Of a stretch of DNA of 25,656 bases, positions 11,964 through 24,799 are shown in pieces. Numbering within the stretch: the first letter of the stretch is position 1; the number at the start of each line of letters is the position of its first letter. The DNA is from Cystobasidiomycetes sp. EMM_F5. Its lineage: Eukaryota. The notes under the pieces were generated by a model. It was not told the DNA's origin, did not search any database, and saw only the letters and a list, made by a program, of their open reading frames with translations. The stretch covers positions 186,001 through 211,656 of the forward strand of contig JBPGPT010000026.1 in the NCBI GenBank assembly GCA_051047955.1. The letters run 5' to 3'. Made by a program: the position numbers and the translations under genes.

Positions 11964-13047
11964 CTAAGCCGAGGCACTGGACGAAGCGGCAGGGACGAGC
12001 GAAGCAGTTGATGACGCGGAGGCACCGAACGTAACGTTCGAAGGGGCGGGGATGGCCGTGTAGGGCCTAGTGGCACCGGTCAGAGTATATGCGGTACTCA
12101 CGAGTACCTGCGTGCCGCTGAGGATGACCTCTTGACAGCTGGCTAGTGTAGAGTTGGTCGTTCCGTTTTGCGCAAGAATTTGACACATGGCCAAATCTGT
12201 TGTAAGGGATAGCACACTTATCAGCACATAAGGAATTTTCGCGTAGTAACGGCAGCAGTACCAGATAAACCGTTGTATCGGATATTCTCAGCGATAGCAG
12301 ATGGACCCAGAACCAGATCGTCCGTGATGGTCGCTGTGACTGTTGCATTGGCTGCAGCCAGAGTCGTAGTGACGACTGCTTCAATAGTCGTATTGACGCC
12401 GCCAGTAGACTGGATCAAGTACGTTCGATTGACTGACGACAGTACATTTGGTCGGAAAGCCGAGATTGTAACGGGCGCTGTTCCAGTAACTCGGGCAGCT
12501 GATGCTCCAGCACCTGATGTGACGCTTGATGCCGGGGCCGACGACGATCCTGGTCCAGAAGACGATGACGAAGCAGCTGCCGAAGAGCCAGATCCACCGG
12601 TGAGAGCGCTGCAACTGTAGTATTCTTTAGAAGAGGATCAAACGCCATGCGAAGAAGCTACTTACGCATCGATGAGCTGCTGAACTTGTTGCTGCTGCGA
12701 GGTAGAGATGCTTGCGCAGCTGACGCAAGCCTGAACACTGCTGAGGAAGCCGGAAGAAGAGCAGATGCATGAGACTGTAATATATCGGCTTAATGTGAGT
12801 ACCGCGAAAGTATCGCACGCTCGTAAGGAATTTCACACACCTTGCTGGGCTGCTGGCTGACTCTGGCAAGTTGTTGCAGCAGTGACGACAGATTGACAGG
12901 ACGATATGCAGTCACCTGTACGCGTACCGTCAGCTTTGGCCGCGACTAGCGACCTCTTCACGACGCACTGGAAGCTTGTGGTACTGGAGTTGCCAAGACC
13001 TGAACGGCTGCGAAAGCGACAAACGGCAGTATAGTGAGGCGATACAT
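11964..13047 (-). CDS. Secreted glycoprotein with an N-terminal 8-Cys CFEM-like domain, a Ser/Ala-rich linker and a C-terminal 2-Cys beta-rich region (about 280 aa)
   Basis: Exons on the minus strand: 13047-12969, 12915-12841, 12774-12666, 12614-12262 (the donor could instead follow 12271, same frame), 12196-11964. Signal-peptide-like start MYRLTILPFVAFAAVQVLA-TP. Then CISSC-x9-C-x10-CIC-x11-CVSC-x17-C. Sequons include NRT, NTT, NAT, NGT, NST and NVT. Confidence 0.8.
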
Positions 13048-13111
13048 GGTGAAGTTGGTAGATGTAGTTCGCTGAAGTATCAGAAAAGCCGGCTCCAACT
13101 GAGGAAGGGGA

Positions 13112-13145
13112 CAGAGGAGGAAGAAGAAGAAGAAAGAAAAAGAGA
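13112..13145 (-). promoter_or_regulatory. Pyrimidine-rich (CTT/CT) tract in the core promoter or 5' UTR of the CFEM-like gene
   Basis: The plus strand reads gaggaggaagaagaagaagaaagaaaaagaga, about 65-100 nt upstream of the minus-strand ATG at 13047. CT-rich tracts are common near fungal transcription starts. Confidence 0.4.
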
Positions 13146-13621
13146 CGGTCAAGCCAACGAATGAGGTAGTCAGCGGTCCTCAGAGGTGGTACCGGTTATG
13201 GTAGTCGGCTTCCAATGCTGTGCCTGAATACTTTTTGGATCCATTCGTCAGTAGGACGCTGATGCAGCTTCTTTCAGCGTCAAGAGGCGATGCAGGACTG
13301 CTCAATGACGAGCTCGAGACTGGCGCTGTCCTGATCATGACAGCCGGCTGATTACACAGAGCTGCGTTGCTTGGGTCCATTGGAGCTAAGTGGAGGTCCG
13401 GTTGGAGATGCTGGCTCGAGCATGCTCTCAAGAACTCGACAATATCGGCCAGCGAGCTCAAAGCCTCACAGGATGGTTCAGCTACTGTAAAATGGCGGCT
13501 TCAAATGTTCCAATCTCCACAAGCCGAAGTTTCTAAGTCTTCAGGCCATTTTGCGGAGCTTCACAAGCGAACAGCTACCATCTCCTGGCCATCTCTCGAA
13601 GACTAATTATATGAAGACCGT

Positions 13622-13948
13622 TCATAATGCACGCTTGTGACTTCCAATTGAATCTCCCGCTGTCGCTAACCTTGCCTGCTCTGGTACTGCCCACACAAAC
13701 AGGCCTCGCAATACGACCCTGTCATGCTCATAAGCAACATAGCTGATCCTGATGTCATCATCAACAATCAATGTGTTTTGCAAAGTCCTTGGCCGAAGCA
13801 CACATGTAGTCGCCCAGAACAGAATGAATGGGTTGCCCAACTCGATTCTGAAGTGCATAAAATGCGGCGATATCAACACTCGCAATAGACAGATCGTCGC
13901 ACCGGTGGTTCTGCGCCTTATACGAGAAGGGAAGAATTCGATTCGCAT
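13622..13948 (-). CDS. Orphan protein E, probable divergent member of the family at 16.5-20.2 kb; ends uncertain
   Basis: 108-aa beta-rich ORF. (YQI)MRIEFFPSRIRRRTTG resembles B YIVKDVPATIQLHRTTG and D FRIDSVPAKYKI. VLISPHFMHFRI resembles D VEIPKFFFRI. DIRISYVAYEHD resembles C DIIIQHAGGREGD. Confidence 0.4.
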   Translation of the reverse strand: MRIEFFPSRIRRRTTGATICLLRVLISPHFMHFRIELGNPFILFWATTCVLRPRTLQNTLIVDDDIRISYVAYEHDRVVLRGLFVWAVPEQARLATAGDSIGSHKRAL

Positions 13949-14482
13949 AATTTGATACTATTTCCGACCCCACCGTCTGCGAACTTCACGAGTCGTGTTT
14001 CATTGGACTCGAGCGTTGGCAAAAGCGATAACGCTTGCTACCTGGAATCTGCAAGAGCCGAACATGTTACGTTGTGGTCTAAGAATTCCTCGTTATGCTT
14101 TTTCTGGCACATTCGGCAAAGCCCAGCGTACCTCGGCGCAAAGATTGCTGTACATGAGGGACAGTGTCAAAGTAGCACCACGCTCAGACACTCAGACATT
14201 GGATGGAGTGGCGTACTCCATCTGCTGCCACGTAATACTCCAGCCGGCCTAATGTATTTACTCTCGCAGTAACACCTTGTGCAAGGCTTGCACGCACCAC
14301 ATCGAGCTCAGTGAAGCCTCATAATATACAGCGAGGCGTCAGTGCATGCATGCTGTACGCTGAGCTCTGCTGTGCTTGTAAGACTGTCAGTAGTGCTGCC
14401 CCGCAATCAGTTTGTGCTATTGAAGCGGTCACGTGCTTCGAAGGACTCTGCCAAAATTCTGAACAGTCAGTTGTTTGAAATA

Positions 14483-16113
14483 ATGGACGCTCACTCCGAC
14501 GCTGCGATGAGCATTGACGCTGCTGCTCCTGCTGTAAACGGCACCAAGAAGCGCAAACATGCCGGCGCTGCGGAGGGCAGTCAGTCTGCTGGGAAACCTG
14601 GGCCATCGTCTTTGGCCAGTTTTGCAGTATCCGACGACAACGTCAAGGACGCGCTGAGGCCGCTCATGGCCAGCTTGCCGGCATTAGCTCTGCCAGCGGA
14701 GACGCGCCTGAGCCTGTTCACCGAAGGCGGTATTGCTGCGCCGTCAAAGGACAAGGGCAAAGGAAAGGGCAGAGCATCGTCGATGCTGCACGGCGAGTCC
14801 GAAAAGCTCGACTGGCACTCTTCGAACCGTCTCTTTGGCATCCAAGATGGCGGAAACCTCGGGCAGCTGGACGACGTATACGGCGCCGCAGGCAATGACG
14901 ATGGCGAATGTAGCGCTGCCTACGCTCTCGCCCTGTATGATCCCGCGTCTTCTACGATATCCCTCGTCAGCACTCCGCTCCACATTATGCAGCACATGCC
15001 GAAACGTTTGAGAACTCTGTCCACTTTGGCGGCCTTGTCAGAACCAGCGACCAGCAATCTCGCAGCCCGTACGGCCCTCGGTCAAGAGTTTGGCACAAAG
15101 AAGGCAAAGCGAGCCATACAAGCTGCCGAGAGGAACAAGGTCGATGCGGGCGCAAAGGATCTTCAGCTTGTCCAGGATGTCCTCATGGAGAATCTCGACG
15201 CCGGTCTCACAACCCTGCCTGCATCCAGTCCAGTCAAGGGCATGGGGCCAGGCGTGTCTAGCTCCGTTGATATTACGGCCCTCGTAGAAATGGCAAAGAA
15301 GACGGGCATGCCAGTGCCCGACACCACCGCATTGAAGGCAGAATCGGTCTATCACATCTTTGGGGAGATCATACTAGACAAGGAATGGGAAGCCATCAAT
15401 CCAAGCCCTGTACTCAAAACACCCGCAAGCGACGTGTCTCAAGCGCTCAGCAGATTACCCTTCTATCACAGCACTTGGATCAACGATCGCGTCCGGCACC
15501 TTCTATCGCCTCAAATGGCCGACTTAGACAAGAAGGAACGGTCACGACGACTTGGCGCTCTGCTGTGGTTATCAGGTATTCTCGCTGTCAAATCGCACAG
15601 GGGTAGAGTGGACGTCAGTAGCGACGAGCAAATGCAAAAGCAATTCCGTCGGCATTCTGCAACAGTAACACCTGAGTGCATGCGGAGCTTGTTTGAACGG
15701 TTCTGCGAGAACATCAGAGGCACTTCACAGTAAGTCTGACTGCATCAAACAATTGTGTCACCTCCTCTGACCGTACGTTCCGCTACAGCTACCAAAACAC
15801 CTCCGTCTCGGAATCTCGCTTGATTGCTCATTTCCTGGTAGTCGCGCTGTACCTCGACGACTATACCAATCTCGACATTATTACCATCTCGAAAGATCTG
15901 AGTATACCGGCAAAACGGGCTTCAGAATTCCTGCACGCTTTAGGTGCACGACTACTAACGCCAAAAGCGGTAGACTTGGCAAAGATCACAGCGGCATGGC
16001 AGAACAATGGTTATACCGTGCCCACTGGCAGCGTCAAACTCAAAGTGGCGACGCTCAAAATACCCCTTGACTTTCCCCGCGAGAGGCGAGGGAAAGCGCC
16101 AGCTAAAAGATAG
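14483..16113 (+). CDS. RPA49: RNA polymerase I subunit A49 (PAF53/POLR1E), about 523 aa
   Basis: Exons 14483-15729 and 15789-16113, with intron GTAAGT...CTGAC...TACAG (1572 nt, in frame). Motifs: YALALYDP, ARTALGQEFGTKKAKRAIQAAERNKVD, P.PD.TA...ESVY, ISKDL...F.ALGA, and ATLKIPLDFP. Confidence 0.9.
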
Positions 16114-16506
16114 ATTGTTGTCAACGAAGACAGCATAATCACAATCTCGTCTCGAACCGTCTTTTCATTGCGTGGGATCCCTCCTTACCGCATCAGCTCG
16201 ATATGAAGTCGATTTTGTGGACATTCTTTCCGAGGCAATACAGCACCTTCATCTTGTCCTGCTAACTCAATTTCATAAGTCCCGTGTAAATCAGAATTGC
16301 TCTCACAACGTCGCGGGTCCTTGTCGTGAAGGCGGTTCCAATCTACCACATTCTATTGTTCAAGTCTGCTTTTGCATAGTTTCGCATGGTACACCGCTCA
16401 AGCCTCATCTTATCGATCTCCCAGAAGACTCTACTTACTCGTTGCATTACCGCTTCCCGAACACGAAGTTCCGTTCCGAAGACGACTTTTGACGCACCTT
16501 GCGACA

Positions 16507-17197
16507 TTACAAGGATTGTCTTCTTTGCAGGTGGGAAGCCTCCTCAAACCTTTGTCGATCGAAATAACCGCCAGCGCTTTGGGTATGCAAGGAGCTTGAG
16601 CCGGACGACGCAATCACTGACCGCTGCGCCGACAGCGCCTGCTGCGATGACCTACGCTGCAAAGTCTGTCTGCTAGGACGGCGTGAAATGCTCGGCGTGT
16701 CCAGGAAGCGACCTTTGTTGGTAGCATCAAGTGGACCCATGGCGGCGTCCGGGACAGTCGATCTCTATCGTAATGTTTCAGGAGCAAGGTGTCAGTGTAC
16801 TCGATGGCACAGAGGCTTAGTGACCTACACTCGGCTTGATCGATAGTATCTTGTCTATTCTATACTCAGTAAGCCCACCTGATCGGCTCCTGGTCGGATA
16901 GCACAGAAGATCCACCAGTATATGCGCTGATTGAGTATTACCCAATACTGAGTCAGCCATGAACCACTCGCGACCAGGCGACGTGTCGCGGTCTGCGTTG
17001 CGGCGTGGTCTAGGGATTTCTAAGTGTGATACCCGAGTACTCGATGCCCATTCCGTCTGTTCGGCGCGTATGGTGAGGGTGATCCAATGCGTTCTGAATG
17101 AAGCTGGACCAATGGTTGGATAAGAATGCCTAGCAAGACTTGCTGGAAAGTTTGTCAAGTGGAACGGCGTCGAAAGGGGTGCCTTAAGCCCAAGCAT
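16507..17197 (-). CDS. Orphan family protein A (about 208 aa)
   Basis: Exon 1 is 17197-16829. A phase-0 intron at 16828-16765 (GTAGGT...ACTGAC...GATAG) joins it in frame to the 16764-16507 segment, which is the ORF-track 16507..16740 frame. Family motifs: PFHLTNFPA, LEIPRP, WFM, and ILVDLL...EYRIDKIL. Confidence 0.6.
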
Positions 17198-17591
17198 GCC
17201 TAGTTGTTAACAACTTTATAGGTGTTCAGAGTAAAGCAAGTCTAAACGACGCGATGCTGATCTATGCCATAGCTGCTAGGCTATGCACCATGTCAGCCAA
17301 CGACATTACAACCTGACATGTCCGTCGCTGTGGCAGTGCCAAAGAGTCCGTTTCAACGATGGATCTCGGCTGCATTCGACTTTTGGGCCCTCGATACCGG
17401 GCTCCGCCATCACTCGAATAGTATTGTAACATCTGGATTGGTCAATGTGTATTCTCACATGTACACACGTTGCGCTGTAGACTAATCCTTCTATTGTCCC
17501 CGATTCAGTTCCGACAACAGACAGGAGGGGCCGGAGGCAACAGAAGTCTAGCACTTGTGAGGTTTCCGGGTCCTGGTCATAAGATGTGACC

Positions 17592-18130
17592 TCACAAATT
17601 CAATGTTGACATACTGCTGTCGGTACTATAGCGACGGTGGCTGATTTGACTGCGCAGGCTGGCTTGTGATCTAGCGCGGCGAGGTCCAATAGGCCTGATA
17701 GATGCAACCTTGGCCTGTAGTGCCTGTGTACGCCGCATCAGACGAGCTTATAGGTATTGCAGGTTTGAACAGACTCTACCTTCCACATGCCCTGAAAACG
17801 CACGATATTATAGGACGAATGCGAAGCATCAACGGGTTGGATTATCAAATTCAGGAAGACGCTATACACTGCAGGAGCTATCTTGTTCGGTATGGCTCGA
17901 CACATTTGCCAGTCCAGGTCCGAAAGTCCGAATCCGTGAGCTGCGCCTGCGGGGCCCAACGTTACTGAAGGGATGCAGACCTGGCGAGACGAGCCCGATG
18001 CTCGGAAGGGCGGAATCTCAACGGCTATTGATTCCGTAGTCCACAATCCCAGCAACCCAGTCGTGCGATGCAACTGGATCGTTGCGGGCACATCCTTCAC
18101 TATGTAAAGCGGAAGCGGAGTGGATGCCAT
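17592..18130 (-). CDS. Orphan family protein B (about 160 aa; 3' splicing ambiguous)
   Basis: Exon 1 is 18130-17780, the intron ends at the acceptor at 17724 (CTGAT...ACACAG), and exon 2 is 17723-17592 with the phase-0 GTAGAG donor. An alternative GTCTGT donor gives a different tail ending at 17600. Motifs: PLYIVKDVPA, VEIPPF, WQM, and VFLNLIIQP...YNI. Confidence 0.6.
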
Positions 18131-18622
18131 CTCTGAGCCTGATGGCCGACGGAATAATCAACACGTATATTAAAAAGTCAAGAGCAGAGAGCGAGGGCAG
18201 GTGCTATCCAGAGCGGTAATCTCATTGAATGGCTGTGCTGCTCGCTGTGCTGCTGGCAGTGTTGTGGTAAGACATATAAGTGACTGGGATGATGCCCAGG
18301 TGGCCATCTCCGCGTCAATAACATTGTGGAGCTATCGTTTGCTAGGACCACTCGTTAATGAGCTGGAAGGCTCATTCGCAGTACCAGTATAGCTGGGTCT
18401 TCATCTCTGGTGATTCAGGGAGAGTGTGTTTTTTGAAAACCGTTCAGGAGGGATTAGGCGTAGCGAACATCGGCAGGGGAATTTTAGTCACTAGTACGGA
18501 ATTTTGTTAGGGCCTGGCTAGAAGTACAGTGTCGCTGTGTTCCACGATTCGCCCGTCGGGACGCTGTTCAGCTCTGCCGGAAATATGGAGAGGCGGTGAC
18601 CATTCCCGGATTCGCATCGTTG

Positions 18623-19111
18623 CTACGACTCTGAAGGATTTACAGTAGTAGCGCGGTCTGCCGGCCGCGAGGGCGGAACAGGGATGAACAGGCGCTGCGC
18701 CGTGATAGTGAGAGACTGGAAAATACCATCGTACAATTAGCTGCAGCTGTACTGTTTTCGTCGCGCATAACGTACTCCGGTCGTTCGTTGGGAGACGTCC
18801 AGAACTTGTTCAATCCTGTAATCGCCCTCTCGACCGCCAGCGTGTTGAATGATAATGTCTAGGTATACGTCCTGGAAGGCGCCCTTCGTGGGACGCTTAG
18901 AAAAGCAGTCCCGTATCATCTGAAAGGCGGGCTGCTCTCCGGTCTGTGGTCTCTTGGGTATGCGATACCCTTCAAGTCTGGCCTTGATTGCTCTGCCTGA
19001 ACAAAGGAAGGTGCATTCATCGACCCTGACGAGAATGTAACTGCCATCAACCTGTAGCATGCCACTGACGTTGGTCAGCGAGTAGCGTGGTTGTGAGAAT
19101 TTGGTAGTCAT
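18623..19111 (-). CDS. Orphan family protein C (142 aa)
   Basis: Exon 1 is 19111-18776, followed by a textbook 60-nt phase-0 intron at 18775-18716 (GTACGT...GCTAAT...TTCCAG). Exon 2 is 18715-18623 (SLTITAQRLFIPVPP...). Motifs: PRYSLTNVSG, YRIPKRP, FQM, and VYLDIIIQH...DYRIEQVL. Confidence 0.7.
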
Positions 19112-19704
19112 GACAGGGGAGATGTGGATATCGTTTGGTATGTAAAGATACGGGGCGAGGGACTGGCACTCCGGAGGATACCTGAAGTTCTATTGATGCG
19201 GCTGTGTCTTTCGTATTTCCGATGAAGTTGCGCTGTGTCTAGATGGCTCGGTAAACGTAGCGGAACACAGCGAAGCAGCGCCCAGTGCGAGCGGTGAATG
19301 TATAGTGCAGTGCATGATAAGTGGCTAGATCTGTCCGCTGAAGTTAGACCACCACATCTGGGCAGTCAGATTCCGCTGCTGCGGCTAGAAGAACGCGGGA
19401 ATGAGAACATCACACCTGGAGTTCCGGCACACCCCTCGGATGCTGCTAAATTGAAACTCAGAAATACTTTAGCTTATCTGTTTTCTAGACATATCACAGC
19501 ACTAGCGTTAGCAAGATATGAAAACAGAATATCAATCTTCATATCCATCAAACAAAGAAGAATATACTCGTGTGCGACAAATGATGAGACAGGTAACACG
19601 GAGATGCAGGATGCAAGCCTAGAGCAGCTTATAGTGTTGTTTTGACATTGTCCTTACCACTCAAACACTGACATGCTTGATATCGAGCATTTCAGCGAGC
19701 TCCT

Positions 19705-20215
19705 TCACTTGCGCCGCTTTGGAGTGATGCTAATGCAGGGAGCCTGTGGAATTGGGACGGGGACAATCGCACACTGCTGCTGGGAAAGAGTGCCATACGG
19801 GCGTGCAACCAAAGGTGGGAGCCAGGACTAAGTTATAAAGCGCAGGCTTTTGAGTCGTGTGTAAAACATTCATATTTTCTACACTCACCGCATTCTTTCG
19901 ACGACGCATGGCAATGATCTGCGGATTGCGAATTGCTCCGCCGGCGTCTCGAACGACATCAAGATCCACTTCGATCTCAACCGGATCATCCCAATGTGCG
20001 AGACCAAAGGGAAAACGGTTGATCCTCCTGAGCCAGGATGGCGGCTGACTCTGAATTATTTTGATGTCTGGTATATCCAACGATGTCCAATCCTGGCCAA
20101 TCCGAAAAAAGAATTTTGGTATCTCCACGTAGCGGGTGTCAAACACGAGACTGATCTTATATTTGGCGGGCACGCTATCGATTCGAAATCTCTGGAACGG
20201 GGGAGCGAAGGCCAT
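19705..20215 (-). CDS. Orphan family protein D (about 149 aa)
   Basis: ATG at 20215 (MAFAPPFQRFRIDSVPA). Exon 1 runs to 19889, a phase-0 intron occupies 19888-19828 (GTGAGT...CTTAG), and exon 2 is 19827-19705 (SWLPPLVARPYGTLSQQQCAIVPVP...KRRK*). Motifs: VEIPKF, LDIPDI, and IEVDLDVV...AGG. Confidence 0.6.
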
Positions 20216-20540
20216 TCTGCAGAACTTTCGGGCTCCCTTAAGATACAGTCCTTTGAGTCTCGATTGGTTGGGATAGCTGGAGCCGATAGTAGCAACCAAC
20301 AAAGACCATTTTAGATTCTCAAACGAGGCGCATACTCTTGTACACTTCGGTAAATTTGCGATTCTGTCATTCGCTTGCACCGATGTGGCGATGAAGTGTC
20401 ATACTGCTGTTCCGGAGCAGTGGATCTTGTAAACGTGGCTGTGCTGAAGGCGAGGTTATCAAGCGAATTGGTGCCGTTTCTTCACTGACTCCCGTACCAA
20501 ATGCAATCGAAATTGGGAGCTGATATGTGATTGTGCGATC

Positions 20541-21788
20541 TTACATTTGTCCCCTGAACTGAGCCCACCACATCTGAGCAGGTAGTTTCCAATTCCTCTG
20601 CTGCGGTTGGTTGAACGCGGGACTGAAGACATTGTAGTCAACGCCTTGCAATTGCTGCAGCATGCTTTTGGCAGGTATGGCTGACAAGAACACCGGTATC
20701 AATTGTTTGGGTAACCGCGACAGCCTGCGACCTTGTGCGAGGGCCGCATGCTCTTCGTCGGTCGCTTCTTCAAGGCCAAGTGTCGCTCTTGCTTTTGCTC
20801 GCTCGCCGTCAGCCAGATTGGCCAATTCGTGACTAGCAGTCTGAACAGCGGGAAACGCTTCAGCTAGGGCATTGGCCGACGGAGAACCTGGAATGGGCGT
20901 CTTGTTCAATGCTGGTAGTGCTCGAAACACCTGTTCGTCGACGATGCCGTGCGCACTCGCTACGTCCCGAGGGATTGTTATTGTCCGGTGTGAGCCAGCA
21001 AAGTACGGGATTGAGCGAAGGAGCTGGGCAATGCTGATATATGTCGCCAAGTGAGATAACGAATGATCAATGGTCGAGAGGGGGATATCGTCTACTTTGT
21101 TTTGTCCAGGCTGCAACACCAACTGCATCTGTAGGAGGAGGAGGGGGAGAGCTGTCGACTGTGCATAGCTAACGAGCTCCGAGAGAGAGTTGTAAGCGGG
21201 AGACAGGAGATTACGCTCGCGTGCATCAATCAGCCGATTCAAGTGGTAGTTTGATAATTTGCGACGCTTGGCTGCGACGGACAGAGCGAGGACGGTTGGG
21301 TGTGGAATAGGAGTGGACTATCATGTCATATTAGTGTGCATATTCAGCAAAAGAATACATAGCACCTGCCGTATTCAACGATTGGACAGCGTCTCTCCAC
21401 CATTGAAAGCGTATCTTTCCGAGCTGGGCATTTCGCACAGAGTCTGCGACGTTGGACAGCTCGACGTTGAATGTTCGGATTGCGAGGTAATCATATCTCG
21501 CTTCGTGGGTAGGGTAGAATGATGTGGCTCTATGTGATGTTTAGAATATCTCAGAGGTCACGAACGACAGCTTTCTCCGGCAACACCTACCCACAAATAG
21601 TTTGGGTAGTCGTACTTTTGCACCATGGACAGAGTATGCTGCCTCACTGCGTCGGGCGTGGGCAGACCAGAGCCAGCATCGTCAGTAGAACGACTGCTCG
21701 TCGCATATCGGGCTATCGAGCATATCCTGCAGCGGGACAGCGAGCGACGGAAGACATAGGAGCTGCTGGAAGATGCAGCGTGTTGCAT
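20541..21788 (-). CDS. NDUFAF6: Complex I assembly factor NDUFAF6 (squalene/phytoene synthase fold), mitochondrial precursor, about 376 aa
   Basis: Exons on the minus strand: 21788-21595, 21529-21370, 21317-20541 (1131 nt). Arg/Ser-rich presequence. Motifs: VQKYDYPNYL, YLAIRTFNVEL, GKIRFQWWRDAV, PIPHP..LAL, RLIDARE, LLRSIPY, PVFLSAIP, and DYNVF. Confidence 0.9.
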
Positions 21789-21871
21789 AGTTTGCAATGT
21801 CAGTAATTGGCAAAAAGCAAAAGAAATATTTCATGACGGCATACTCGACATTGTGACTGCTCCGACTGAAT
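21789..21871. promoter_or_regulatory. Very short bidirectional promoter between NDUFAF6 and SGD1
   Basis: Divergent ATGs at 21788 (-) and 21872 (+) are separated by 83 bp. The AT-rich core contains the palindrome GAAATATTTC at 21823-21832. Confidence 0.6.
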
Positions 21872-24799
21872 ATGCCACGATTCGGCAAAGGCCGCCAGTC
21901 GAATGGACAGCAAGCGCCGTATCATGTCCGGAAAACTACGCTGCTGCCAGCTTCGTTGCGCGAAGAGCTCGTTGCAAGTGGCCGTCTTGAAGGGCAACAG
22001 GGTGGAAATGGATCTGATAATACAGGCGTACTCGGGAGGAAACAGCGCAGGAAGGATGACAGGAACGCTAGAAAGAGCAGTGGACAGGGTTCAATACCCA
22101 AAACAAAGCCCGTCAAGCCATCAAGTAATCTCAAATCTGTAATTCATTCCAAACAAAAGTCATCCATATCGACAAACGCAGACCCTTCCTCCTCCAAGCA
22201 GCGTAAACGTGCTCGTTTTCAGGATGATGTAGACGCAAATGTAGACGATGGTCCCAGAGCGTCAACGTCCAAACCTGTAAATGAAAAGACCAAGCCGCCG
22301 CAGGACAACCGGACTACTCTACAACGCATGGTCGATAAACAAGATGCGACAGGGTATGGGAAACATCCTCAAAGCTCGTCGAGTAAATTAACGAAGCCCA
22401 AAGGCTATCGCTCCGCCGTCGAAAAGGATGAAGATTCCGAAATTGCATGGCTCGAAGCCAAACTCGGTGTACGGCGAACTGGTGCAGGCCGTAAACAGCT
22501 AGAGGAGGATGGTCTGGATGGTGCGTCTAGTGAAGTCAGCCGCGCATCCTAGACTAATTGACGCGATTGCACAGACCTTTTCGACGACCTAGACAGGCTC
22601 GATGAAGAATTGTTTGCGGGCGATGACGAGCAAGAAACAGTGTCCGGCTCATCCGACGACGAAGGAGATTCGGACATGTCATCTGACAGCCATGGTCAGC
22701 CAGAGGCCGACTCTGACCAAATTGTCTCGGAAGTGGACGACATAGCGGAGCTTGACAGCGAGTCTGGCGAAGAAGGCACCATTCTGACGGCCGAGACTCA
22801 AGAAGCCATAGCCTCCAATCCTTCTGATGGAAAGGTAGACGCAGCTCTCCTAGAAAAGCAGAAATACATACCTCCAGCACTTCGCAAACAATCGGAACCC
22901 AGCGCAACATCGCTACCAGCCGAAGTGGACGATCCGCAACTTCGTCGACAGCTACGGGGTCTCCTCAATCGGCTTTCCGCAACGTCATTTCCTGCTCTTG
23001 TACTCAACCCTTTAGACCCGAGTAGTCTACACAGCATCTATCTCTCCAAATCCCGTGCAGTCGTGTCTCGGATACTAGTCCGCCTTATCTGCGAGATTAT
23101 TTCCGCACAAGGTGAAGCAGGCGGGATAGGAGACACTCAGGTCGTTGTCATGGCCGGGCTCGTTAAGCTTCTATCGACCGGCATAGTGGGCGGCATGTCT
23201 TCCAATGGTGGAAAGGAGATTGCAGCGTCCGTTGTCGACAGCGTTGTCAAGCAGCTAGACGACGTGGCCGCATCAGACATTGACACGCACAAACAGCGGA
23301 CGAATTTGGTCGGCTTTCTGGCTGTCTTGTACAACCTACAAGTCATTGCGGCGGGACTAATGTATGACCTTATCAGAGAAGCTATCGCGCGTGGGCTGAG
23401 TGAGGAGGATGCCGAGGTCCTGTTGCGTATCTTGCGAGGTGCGTAGGAACAGTGCGGTCGCAATTGGACGTATCCACTAACAGCTGCCGCATGCTTTATG
23501 CAGTCTCCGGGGCTCAGCTCCGCCACGATGATCCAAATGCGCTCAAAGCCATCATCTCCTTGGTCAATGAACAGCAGAAAGGCATCGCTCCTGACTCACT
23601 CACCTCAAGGCAGCGATTCATGCTCGAGACTCTCACAAACCTGCGCAACAACAAGCTAAAGCAGCCCACTGGCGTCACCGCCGACACGGAGGCGAGTCTC
23701 AAAAAGTATATTGGCGGTTTGGCTCGAAAATCGTCTGTTTCTACAGAGCCATTGCGGCTTACGCTGGATGATCTTCGACAGAGCGGGGAGAAGGGGAAAT
23801 GGTGGCTAGTTGGCGCAGCTTGGTCTGGAGATCCTCTTGTTGACAGACACTCAGATATCGCCGTAGGCTCCGGAGCTTACAAATCAGGAAAGGAGGACGA
23901 AAGCAAAGGAAAAGAAGCAGCTTTACTGAAGTTGGCAAGAAAACAAGGCATGAATACCGATATTCGACGGAATGTGTTTGTTGCTGTCATGGGAGCTCAG
24001 GACTACATGGATGCTTGCGAGAGGATCATGCAGCTCAAGCTTACTGAAGTTCAACAACGTGAAGTAGTACGCGTATTGCTGCATTGTCTAGGCCGAGTAA
24101 GCAGCGTACGGCGTGCGTTGCGGCGGGAATAGACGAACTGACTACGCTTTATATGCGCAGGAGAAGGCCTACAACCCATTCTACACGCTCATCATGGCAC
24201 GACTTCCCACGTCGTCACCTACAGGCCTGTCACACTCTTACCAGATCACTCTGCAATATGCACTGTGGGATCTGTTCCGGGAAATGGGCGAAAAGGATGT
24301 AGGAGGATCAGACATGGCTCGTAACACGTCACACGGCACTGTGGATGAGAAGAGATCGCGCAACCTGGCAAAAGCGTATGCATGGTGGATCGCAAAAGCA
24401 GGGTTGGGTTTGACAGTTCTTAAAGTGCGCCGAGGAAAGTCTGTGTTGCATGGGAGTTGGGTGCTGACTACAGCTCCACTCTCTTAATAGCCATTGACTT
24501 TCCAGCTTCTTACTCGCGACACGCGGACCTTCCTCTCAATCCTCTTCTCGTCCTTGATCCTCTCTACACAAACGGATTCACCGCTTCTTATTTCTGTCCG
24601 ATCAGCTTCTAACAGGGATAGCAAGAGTCTTGTGACGCCATTTCTCGCACTCGCAGCGGCCAACGGCGGAGTAGCGCAGGGTGTATACTGGTTCTTGGAG
24701 AATGATAAAGATCTTCGACGGAGTACCGATGAAATTGTGAAGTGGGGTATTCAGAGCGCTATGCAGGCGCTCAGTACTAGTGTATCGTTCATCGTGTGA
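21872..24799 (+). CDS. SGD1: Nucleolar MIF4G/MA3 protein Sgd1 (NOM1), about 892 aa
   Basis: Exons 21872-22520, 22575-23438, 23504-24096, 24161-24424, 24491-24799 (2679 nt, in frame). Motifs: EIAWLEAKLG...EEDGLDDL, KYIPPALR, LRGLLNRLS, GAQLRHDDPNALK, RFMLETLTNLRNNK, KGKWWLVGAAW, ARKQGMNTDIRRNVF, and EKAYNPFY. Confidence 0.93.

What the first reader, a model, noticed from the sequence alone, without database searches (positions are those of the whole stretch)
16507..20215. Tandem array of four highly diverged paralogs of an unrecognised ~115-aa beta-rich domain
Seen in the sequence: four co-oriented minus-strand genes spaced about 1 kb apart (A ATG 17197, B 18130, C 19111, D 20215), each with a first exon of 109-123 codons. 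They share an N-terminal motif (A PFHLTNFPA, B PLYIVKDVPA, C PRYSLTNVSG, D QRFRIDSVPA). Middle motifs are shared in pairs or trios (B VEIPPF / D VEIPKF; A LEIPRP / C YRIPKRP; A WFM / B WQM / C FQM). The C-terminal strand-loop-strand motif is A ILVDLL..EYRIDKIL, B VFLNLIIQ..SYNIVRF, C VYLDIIIQ..DYRIEQVL, D IEVDLDVV..NPQIIAM. None has a signal peptide or TM helix, and I see no DNA-level similarity. I do not recognise the family. Inference: an old, fast-diverging, lineage-specific intracellular family sitting among conserved housekeeping genes. That pattern is seen in effector, allorecognition, meiotic-drive and defence loci. The final hairpin would fit an OB-like beta-barrel, which is speculative.
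Basis: partly seen in the sequence, partly recalled or inferred. Interest (0 to 1): 0.8.

Follow-up and report, generated by a model that had tools for sequence, protein, structure and literature searches.

The report
Four orphan ORFs, family unproven
Four small same-strand open reading frames lie between two housekeeping genes of a basidiomycete-yeast-like fungus, but they have no relatives in any database searched and resemble each other hardly more than chance, so a new protein family is not shown.

Summary
The four minus-strand ORFs exist at the stated ATGs (A 17197, B 18130, C 19111, D 20215), each followed by an intron-like GT..AG segment. The quoted motifs are literally present. The family claim is not established. 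Of 6 pairs, only A-C (4/2000 shuffles) and B-C (27/2000) exceed chance, and unrelated ORF pairs from this window reach those scores in 2% and 5% of cases. D matches none of the others. The best four-way block has p about 0.08.

No Pfam, PDB or homologue hit was found for B, C or D in 1.8-5.8 billion proteins. AlphaFold2 confidence is low (pLDDT 51 and 35). Codon usage of A, B and C is below all 33 real-gene segments.

In favour of real genes:
- Four ORFs this long on one strand are rare by simulation (7/2000).
- B, C and D show intermediate 3-base periodicity.

New observations:
- An 85-91 nt relic of the neighbouring SQS_PSY (NDUFAF6-like) gene's 3' end lies between D and C.
- B shows a marginal in-frame likeness to that gene.

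Most likely this is a lineage-specific cluster of orphan or proto-genes, not an old beta-domain family. Interest is low. RNA data and relatives' contigs were out of reach.

The parts
16817..17197 (-). ORF A (126 aa plus stop). Putative first exon 16829-17197, with a GTAGGT donor at 16828.
   Evidence: Codon score -0.058, below all 33 real segments. Periodicity chi2 5.8, like chance ORFs. Atlas recognition 1186.
16507..16764 (-). Putative second exon of A (85 codons plus stop), rich in Ser, Arg and Gln.
   Evidence: 64-nt intron, CTGAC 27 nt before the acceptor. No similarity to the other second exons.
17738..18130 (-). ORF B (130 aa plus stop). Marginal in-frame likeness to residues 53-135 of the neighbouring SQS_PSY gene's last exon.
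   Evidence: BLASTP E 2e-4, 21/71 identical; 1/3000 shuffles. Against: phmmer E 2.7, no hit with the family HMM, hhalign nothing. Codon score -0.016. Chi2 12.5.
17592..17723 (-). Putative second exon of B (40-43 codons plus stop; acceptor at 17724 or 17715).
18737..19111 (-). ORF C (124 aa plus stop). The only ORF with above-chance likeness to two others (A and B).
   Evidence: Leave-one-out HMM rank 1 of 408. Codon score 0.002. Chi2 12.4. AF2 pLDDT 50.6.
18623..18715 (-). Putative second exon of C (30 codons plus stop).
   Evidence: 60-nt intron GTACGT..CCAG, CTAAT 21 nt before the acceptor.
19730..20215 (-). ORF D (161 aa read through). Putative first exon 19889-20215 (109 codons), with a GTGAGT donor at 19888.
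   Evidence: Unrelated to A, B and C. Codon score 0.057, the 18th percentile of real segments. Chi2 14.5. A 262-nt contig of run X2 (kind guessed as RNA) covers 19990-20251.
19705..19827 (-). Putative second exon of D (40 codons plus stop). Its last 18 codons (19708-19761) resemble the first 20 residues of the neighbouring gene's last exon.
   Evidence: tblastn E 0.072. Smith-Waterman 1/3000 shuffles. This is a lead only.
19326..19410 (-). Relic copy of the last 30 codons plus stop of the SQS_PSY gene. It carries an in-frame stop and a 6-nt deletion, and is sharply bounded on both sides.
   Evidence: D1, D2; E 1.5e-12; tblastn 18/30 identical, E 9e-7; only repeat in the window. The flanks do not extend the match.
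20541..21317 (-). Last exon of the neighbouring SQS_PSY (NDUFAF6-like; that name is recalled) gene 'X'. It is the source of the relic.
   Evidence: Pfam PF00494 E 4.1e-16. 17 homologues at 48-72% identity, one named as a Cyphobasidiales MAG protein.
14483..16113 (+). RNA polymerase I A49-like gene, convergent with the array. Its end at 16113 bounds the 4.4-kb interval.
   Evidence: Pfam PF06870 E 6.8e-38 and 1.3e-13 on two exons.

Best explanation
The 4.4-kb spacer between two convergent housekeeping genes carries a lineage-specific cluster of small, same-strand orphan ORFs. These are proto-genes or young, weakly constrained genes. They are not an old four-member domain family.

B, C and D look faintly coding and A does not. 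A faint common origin by local duplication is possible for C with A and for C with B. D stands alone.

Any products would be small (142-208 aa), basic (pI 9.4-11.1), non-secreted proteins without a confidently predictable fold. I infer no conserved biochemical function. The locus is best read as a place where new ORFs arise and turn over. It has also captured a short copy of the neighbouring gene's 3' end.

Shown: the ORFs, their excess over chance, the lack of homologues and the relic. Inferred: that they are expressed, their youth and their mode of origin.
For: ORF excess: four ATG ORFs of at least 124 codons on one strand occur in 7 of 2000 second-order Markov simulations of the interval.

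Intron-like continuation: all 4 have a canonical intron-like continuation of at least 25 codons. By my own classification, 5 of 17 ORFs in non-coding frames of the window do too.

Periodicity: 3-base periodicity chi2 is 12.5 for B, 12.4 for C and 14.5 for D. About 10%, 10% and 7% of 401 simulated chance ORFs reach these values, and they lie in the lower third of 33 real segments.

No homologues:
- C: 1 hit (itself) among 5 candidates.
- D: 1 hit (itself) among 14 candidates.
- B: itself plus 3 repetitive, unrelated proteins among 1.84 billion representatives.
- The neighbouring gene, by contrast, finds 17 relatives at 48-72% identity.

No known family: no Pfam hit in any of 83 stop-to-stop ORFs of the interval, apart from the ends of the two flanking genes.

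Faint internal similarity: A-C and B-C only, with leave-one-out HMM ranks of 3, 3 and 1 of 408 for A, B and C and 158 for D.
Against: - Codon log-odds of A (-0.058), B (-0.016) and C (0.002) lie below all 33 real 125-codon segments (mean 0.113, minimum 0.009). Plus-strand ORFs of the same interval score alike.
- A has chance-like periodicity.
- Atlas recognition is 2102 for D and 1186 for A. 91 of 100 known-family proteins reach 2300.
- AF2 pLDDT is 50.6 for C and 35.1 for B.
- No transcript evidence could be obtained.
- The ORF-count statistic was chosen after seeing the data.
Confidence: 0.4

Rival explanations
1. Non-genic: the interval is lineage-specific non-coding or decayed DNA. A-D are open frames that happen to be long, and the shared motifs are coincidences a careful reader can find in any four 120-residue translations.
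For: - Codon usage of A, B and C is below all real segments and equal to that of plus-strand ORFs in the interval.
- No homologues, no Pfam and no confident fold.
- 4 of 6 pairs are null, and the two best scores are reached by 2% and 5% of 2268 decoy pairs.
- Four-way block p is about 0.08.
- The window holds 57 stop-to-stop ORFs of at least 110 aa.
Against: - Four such ATG ORFs on one strand occur in 7/2000 simulations.
- All four have intron-like continuations.
- B, C and D have periodicity above about 90% of chance ORFs.
- A 4.4-kb tail-to-tail spacer would be unusually long for a compact yeast genome (general knowledge, not tested here).
Confidence: 0.3
2. One reading: all four are real genes and paralogues of one roughly 115-aa beta-rich domain. 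They arose by tandem duplication and diverged almost beyond recognition.
For: - Same strand and spacing of 933-1104 nt.
- Similar two-exon layout with phase-0 introns of 60-89 nt.
- A-C 4/2000 and B-C 27/2000 shuffles.
- Leave-one-out ranks of 3, 3 and 1 of 408 for A, B and C.
- Both AF2 models are drawn as mostly strands, but at low confidence.
Against: - D is null against A, B and C in every test, and A-B is null.
- Second exons are null in 6 of 6 pairs.
- The best four-way block is not significant and is not one of the proposed motifs.
- No confident fold and no PDB fold match at E <= 0.001.
- No orthologues that would allow a profile test.
Confidence: 0.2
3. The ORFs, B at least, are strongly diverged or decayed partial copies of the last exon of the neighbouring SQS_PSY (NDUFAF6-like) gene. 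On this reading the 'family' motifs are what remains of that gene.
For: - A certain relic of that exon's 3' end lies between D and C.
- B aligns in frame with X residues 53-135: BLASTP E 2e-4 and 1/3000 shuffles. This was the top score of 2268 ORF pairs.
- 19708-19761 resembles X residues 3-20 (1/3000 shuffles).
- The two best non-self phmmer hits of X among 395 ORFs both lie in this interval on the minus strand.
- The same B region (about 12-97) is the best local match for 8 of 17 relatives of X, with scores falling as distance grows.
Against: - phmmer gives only E 2.7 and E 2 for those two hits.
- The 18-sequence family HMM finds none of A-D.
- hhalign of A-D profiles against the X family gives P 0.12-0.79.
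- B's search of 1.84 billion representatives returns no SQS_PSY protein.
- Frameshift-tolerant alignment scores 61 against a shuffled-X null of 54.3 +/- 7.3, maximum 81.
- X against A, C and D is null.
- The relic's flanks are not homologous to X's flanks, so it does not mark a large duplication.
Confidence: 0.1

Closest known systems
Taxonomically restricted (orphan) genes and proto-genes of fungi (concept recalled from the literature, no paper read here)
   Same: - No detectable homologue.
- Short ORFs.
- Codon usage close to non-coding DNA.
- Low structure-prediction confidence.
- Located in a spacer between conserved genes.
   Different: Expression and translation are unproven here. Four ORFs in a row on one strand with a similar two-exon layout is more orderly than typical scattered proto-genes.
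SQS_PSY family (Pfam PF00494), NDUFAF6-like neighbour gene at 20541-21317 and upstream exons
   Same: An 85-91 nt relic of its 3' end lies inside the array. ORF B has a marginal in-frame likeness to residues 53-135.
   Different: None of A-D matches PF00494 or a local 18-sequence profile. Of the 17 family-invariant columns in X 75-135, B keeps 8 by my reading.
Tandem clusters of fast-evolving fungal effector or allorecognition genes
   Same: Tandem, co-oriented, small, lineage-specific and highly divergent.
   Different: There is no signal peptide, no cysteine pattern (1-3 Cys), no NACHT, HET or other known domain, and no demonstrated paralogy for D.
OB-fold and other small beta-barrels
   Same: The low-confidence AF2 models of B and C are drawn mostly as strands.
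   Different: pLDDT is 50.6 and 35.1. The best Foldseek E-value is 0.11, with query-normalised TM-score at most 0.34 among the rows listed and no OB-fold entry named among them.

Membership tests
   2 of 6 pairs are marginal (A-C 4/2000, B-C 27/2000) and 4 of 6 are null. Decoy pairs reach those scores at 2.0% and 5.1%. D ranks 158 of 408 in the leave-one-out test.
   The best ungapped 10-residue block scores 83 against 68.2 +/- 7.9, and 5/60 shuffles reach it. A position-restricted test of the N-terminal motif was not run.
   AF2 single-sequence models: C pLDDT 50.6, B 35.1.
   First exon of 109-123 codons, phase-0 intron-like segment of 60-89 nt, and a short second exon in all four. 21 of 33 ORFs of at least 100 codons in the window also allow such a model.
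SQS_PSY (PF00494) | Match to the Pfam profile at or above the gathering score | tested here: not met
   0 families for A-D at E <= 1. None in 81 other ORFs of the interval.
SQS_PSY (PF00494) | Match to a profile of the neighbour gene's own relatives | tested here: not met
   hmmsearch finds only X and the relic. hhalign P 0.12-0.79.
SQS_PSY (PF00494) | Pairwise similarity to the neighbouring member | tested here: inconclusive
   B only: BLASTP E 2e-4 and 1/3000 shuffles, but phmmer E 2.7. A, C and D are null.
Taxonomically restricted (orphan) genes | No homologue outside the lineage | tested here: met
   C and D find only themselves. B has no credible hit in 1.84 billion representatives. A was checked only in the ESM Atlas, with no usable hit.
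Taxonomically restricted (orphan) genes | Evidence that the ORF is transcribed and translated | not testable with these tools
   No RNA holder is listed. Only three small contigs lie on the interval. No genome or RNA data of the organism is held.
OB-fold / small beta-barrel | Confident model with a structural match to OB-fold entries | tested here: inconclusive
   The model is of low confidence. Foldseek against PDB gives 0 matches at E <= 0.001.

The most novel reading that the evidence does not exclude
The spacer is a gene-birth site. Pieces of the last exon of the neighbouring NDUFAF6-like gene have been copied downstream more than once. At least one copy (B) stayed open in the original frame while diverging almost completely. 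The result is a small array of new, lineage-specific proteins unrelated in fold to their source.
Probability: 0.1. Interest if true: 0.6.

Novelty: new member of a known kind. Interest (0 to 1): 0.22.

Why it matters
If the four ORFs were a real, old, unrecognised domain family, they would add a new fold family in lichen-associated yeasts. The evidence does not support that.

What remains is an example of the grey zone between non-coding DNA and orphan genes in an undersampled fungal lineage. It is of some use for studies of gene birth, but only once transcription is shown. As it stands the finding is ordinary and should not be filed as a new family.

Tried and rejected
- Own genome: none is held.
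- Earlier findings: nothing returned.
- Sequencing runs: no RNA holder is listed. Laying X1 and X2 gave one 50-nt low-identity piece at 14747-14796, two 151-nt pieces at 17228-17548 and one 262-nt piece at 19990-20251. X2's RNA label is a guess, so nothing about expression follows.
- Metagenome scans with X and with its family alignment: no relative in either of 2 scans.
- Profile links: the X-family HMM and hhalign against A-D gave nothing.
- Frameshift-tolerant protein-to-DNA alignment of X on the interval: apparently collinear peaks in the B unit, but the top score of 61 lies inside the shuffled null of 54.3 +/- 7.3.
- Extending the relic's homology into its flanks, and comparing whole units at DNA level: 5 of 6 unit pairs are null. 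C against A gives one 34-nt ungapped match (score 16, null maximum 15 of 100). It is out of frame and not collinear with the protein alignment, so I treat it as chance.
- PDB profile search with A1: 0 hits at E <= 1.
- Foldseek with the C model: 0 hits at E <= 0.001.
- ESM Atlas for D and A: no usable hit.
- Rfam at E <= 1 and tRNA scan: none.
- Isoelectric point does not discriminate: 27% of real segments and 35% of other ORFs exceed 9.4.
- A position-restricted test of the N-terminal motif was not run.
Full report
SETTING

The window is fungal. Pfam places these genes in it:
- an RNA polymerase I A49 gene at 14483-16113 (+);
- an SQS_PSY gene, called X here, whose last exon is 20541-21317 (-);
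- Set2-, UTP10- and MIF4G-type genes elsewhere.

X finds 17 relatives at 48-72% identity. The only named one (57%) is a hypothetical protein of a Cyphobasidiales metagenome-assembled genome. A paper on such genomes was seen as a search listing and abstract start only (PMC8355462). The name NDUFAF6-like for X is my recollection. Only the Pfam match was tested.

A49 and X are convergent. The finding occupies the 4.4-kb spacer between their 3' ends. No whole genome is held for the window.

THE OBSERVATION

- first exons of 123, 109, 112 and 109 codons;
- phase-0 intron-like segments of 64, 80-89, 60 and 61 nt;
- second exons of 85, 40-43, 30 and 40 codons.

The motif strings are literally present. 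There is no hydrophobic N-terminus or TM-like window (maximum 19-residue Kyte-Doolittle mean 1.37), and pI is 9.4-11.1.

ARE THE FOUR RELATED?

BLASTP gives no alignment for A-C, E 1.3 for A-B, E 1.0 for D-B and E 0.002 for B-C over 38 residues.

- A-C scores 40 and is reached by 4/2000 shuffles.
- B-C scores 36 and is reached by 27/2000 shuffles.
- A-B, A-D, B-D and C-D are null.
- All 6 second-exon pairs are null.

Shuffles flatter real translations. Among 2268 pairs of other ORFs of at least 100 aa from this window, 1.98% reach 40 and 5.07% reach 36.

In a leave-one-out test, an HMM built from three ORFs scored the fourth among 107 window ORFs and 300 shuffles. A ranked 3rd, B 3rd, C 1st and D 158th of 408.

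The best ungapped four-way block scores 83 against 68.2 +/- 7.9, and 5/60 shuffles reach it.

So C has a faint likeness to A and to B, A and B have none to each other, and D has none to anything. That is too weak to define a family.

ARE THEY GENES?

Against:
- A codon log-odds model was trained on ten long ORFs of the window, nine of them pieces of Pfam-supported genes. Scored leave-one-out, it gives 33 real 125-codon segments a mean of 0.113 (sd 0.058, minimum 0.009). A scores -0.058, B -0.016 and C 0.002, all below every real segment. D's first exon scores 0.057, the 18th percentile.
- Plus-strand ORFs of the interval score the same as A-D, and no frame of the interval rises to gene level in a sliding scan.
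- None of A-D, and none of the 83 stop-to-stop ORFs of the interval other than the two flanking-gene ends, matches Pfam.
- C and D find only themselves in the 5.8-billion-cluster collection: 1 hit of 5 candidates and 1 of 14.
- B, searched by phmmer against 1.84 billion representatives, finds itself and three repetitive proteins. One is a tandem-repeat translation matched in 14 stretches, and two are large repeat proteins, apparently bacterial by my reading of their sequences. None is an SQS_PSY protein.
- A profile of A-D finds nothing in the PDB sequences.
- The ESM Atlas gives no usable hit, with recognition values of 2102 (D) and 1186 (A).
- AlphaFold2 without an alignment gives pLDDT 50.6 and pTM 0.42 for C, and pLDDT 35.1 for B.
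- Foldseek with the C model finds no PDB match at E <= 0.001.

For:
- In 2000 second-order Markov simulations of the interval, four or more ATG ORFs of at least 124 codons on one strand occurred 7 times. I chose this statistic after seeing the data.
- All four ORFs allow an intron-like continuation of at least 25 codons. Of 33 ATG ORFs of at least 100 codons in the window, 21 do. Of the 17 that I class as non-coding frames, 5 do.
- A training-free test of 3-base periodicity gives chi2 12.5 for B, 12.4 for C and 14.5 for D. About 10%, 10% and 7% of 401 simulated chance ORFs exceed these values, and they fall in the lower third of real segments. A gives 5.8, like chance.

Taken together, B, C and D sit between non-coding and coding. 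A looks non-coding apart from its long second frame.

A LINK TO THE NEIGHBOURING GENE

Positions 19326-19410, between D and C, are a copy of 20542-20632, the last 30 codons and stop of X:
- blastn gives E 1.5e-12 and 74.7% identity over 91 columns.
- tblastn gives 18/30 identical residues, with an in-frame stop and a two-codon deletion.
- It is the only internal repeat in the 25.6-kb window.
- The match ends sharply. The 400 nt on either side do not align with the matching flanks of X.

If a large segment had been duplicated at the age implied by the relic, neutral flanks should still be about 70% identical by my estimate. I therefore read it as a short local copy, not as a marker of a D-to-C duplication.

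Two further likenesses to X are leads only:
- The B ORF aligns in frame with X residues 53-135. BLASTP gives E 2e-4 with 21/71 identical, and 1/3000 shuffles reach the score. It was the top score of the 2268 ORF pairs.
- Positions 19708-19761, the end of D's putative second exon, resemble X residues 3-20 (1/3000 shuffles).

Evidence against these two leads:
- phmmer rates them E 2.7 and E 2 among 395 ORFs.
- The 18-sequence X-family HMM misses all of A-D.
- hhalign finds nothing.
- A frameshift-tolerant alignment is within its shuffled null.
- B's score against relatives of X falls to null with distance.
- X against A, C and D is null.

WHAT COULD NOT BE DONE

- No RNA holder was listed for the stretch. 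The two runs that share words with it contribute only three small contigs inside the interval.
- Two metagenome scans for relatives of X found none.
Synteny in the closest relatives therefore remains unseen.
- A was not searched in the large collections.
- The position-restricted test of the N-terminal motif was not run.

VERDICT

The ORFs are real and their number on one strand is unusual. The claim of four paralogues of one beta-rich domain is not supported:
- One member (D) fails every test.
- Two pairs (A-C, B-C) are marginal.
- No fold is predicted with confidence.
- No relatives exist to build profiles from.

My estimates:
- 0.4: a lineage-specific cluster of orphan or proto-genes with at most partial common origin.
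- 0.3: non-genic open frames.
- 0.1: diverged copies of the neighbouring gene's last exon.

Interest is low unless transcripts or orthologues appear.

Noticed in passing
window 19326-19410 (-) vs 20542-20632 (-): A sharply bounded copy of the last 30 codons plus stop of the SQS_PSY gene lies 1.2 kb downstream of the original, about 75% identical. It has an in-frame stop and a 6-nt deletion, and the stop codon position is kept (TAA to TAG). It is the only internal repeat in the window.
   Followed up: yes
window 21318-21369 (-): The intron before the last exon of the SQS_PSY gene seems to be a 52-nt GC-AG intron (donor GCAGGT, acceptor GATAG). Only this choice joins '...SLNT' to 'STPIPHP...' in frame, and it matches 'NTSTPVPHP' in relative P0009. 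This was read by eye.
   Followed up: partly
window 19708-19761 (-): An 18-codon stretch ending in KRRK plus stop resembles the first 20 residues of the SQS_PSY gene's last exon (8/18 identical; 1/3000 shuffles; tblastn E 0.072). It is a possible second relic.
   Followed up: partly
window 13000-14300: In the sliding codon-score scan this stretch upstream of the A49 gene scores as low as the studied interval (best frame at most 0.07). It may be another gene-poor or orphan region.
   Followed up: no
window 19990-20251: A 262-nt contig of coded run X2 covers the start of ORF D and 36 nt upstream. The run's kind is only guessed to be RNA. The contig has one difference, at 20171, which by my reading is a synonymous third-position change in D's frame. 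No other part of 13500-22500 is covered in that run.
   Followed up: partly
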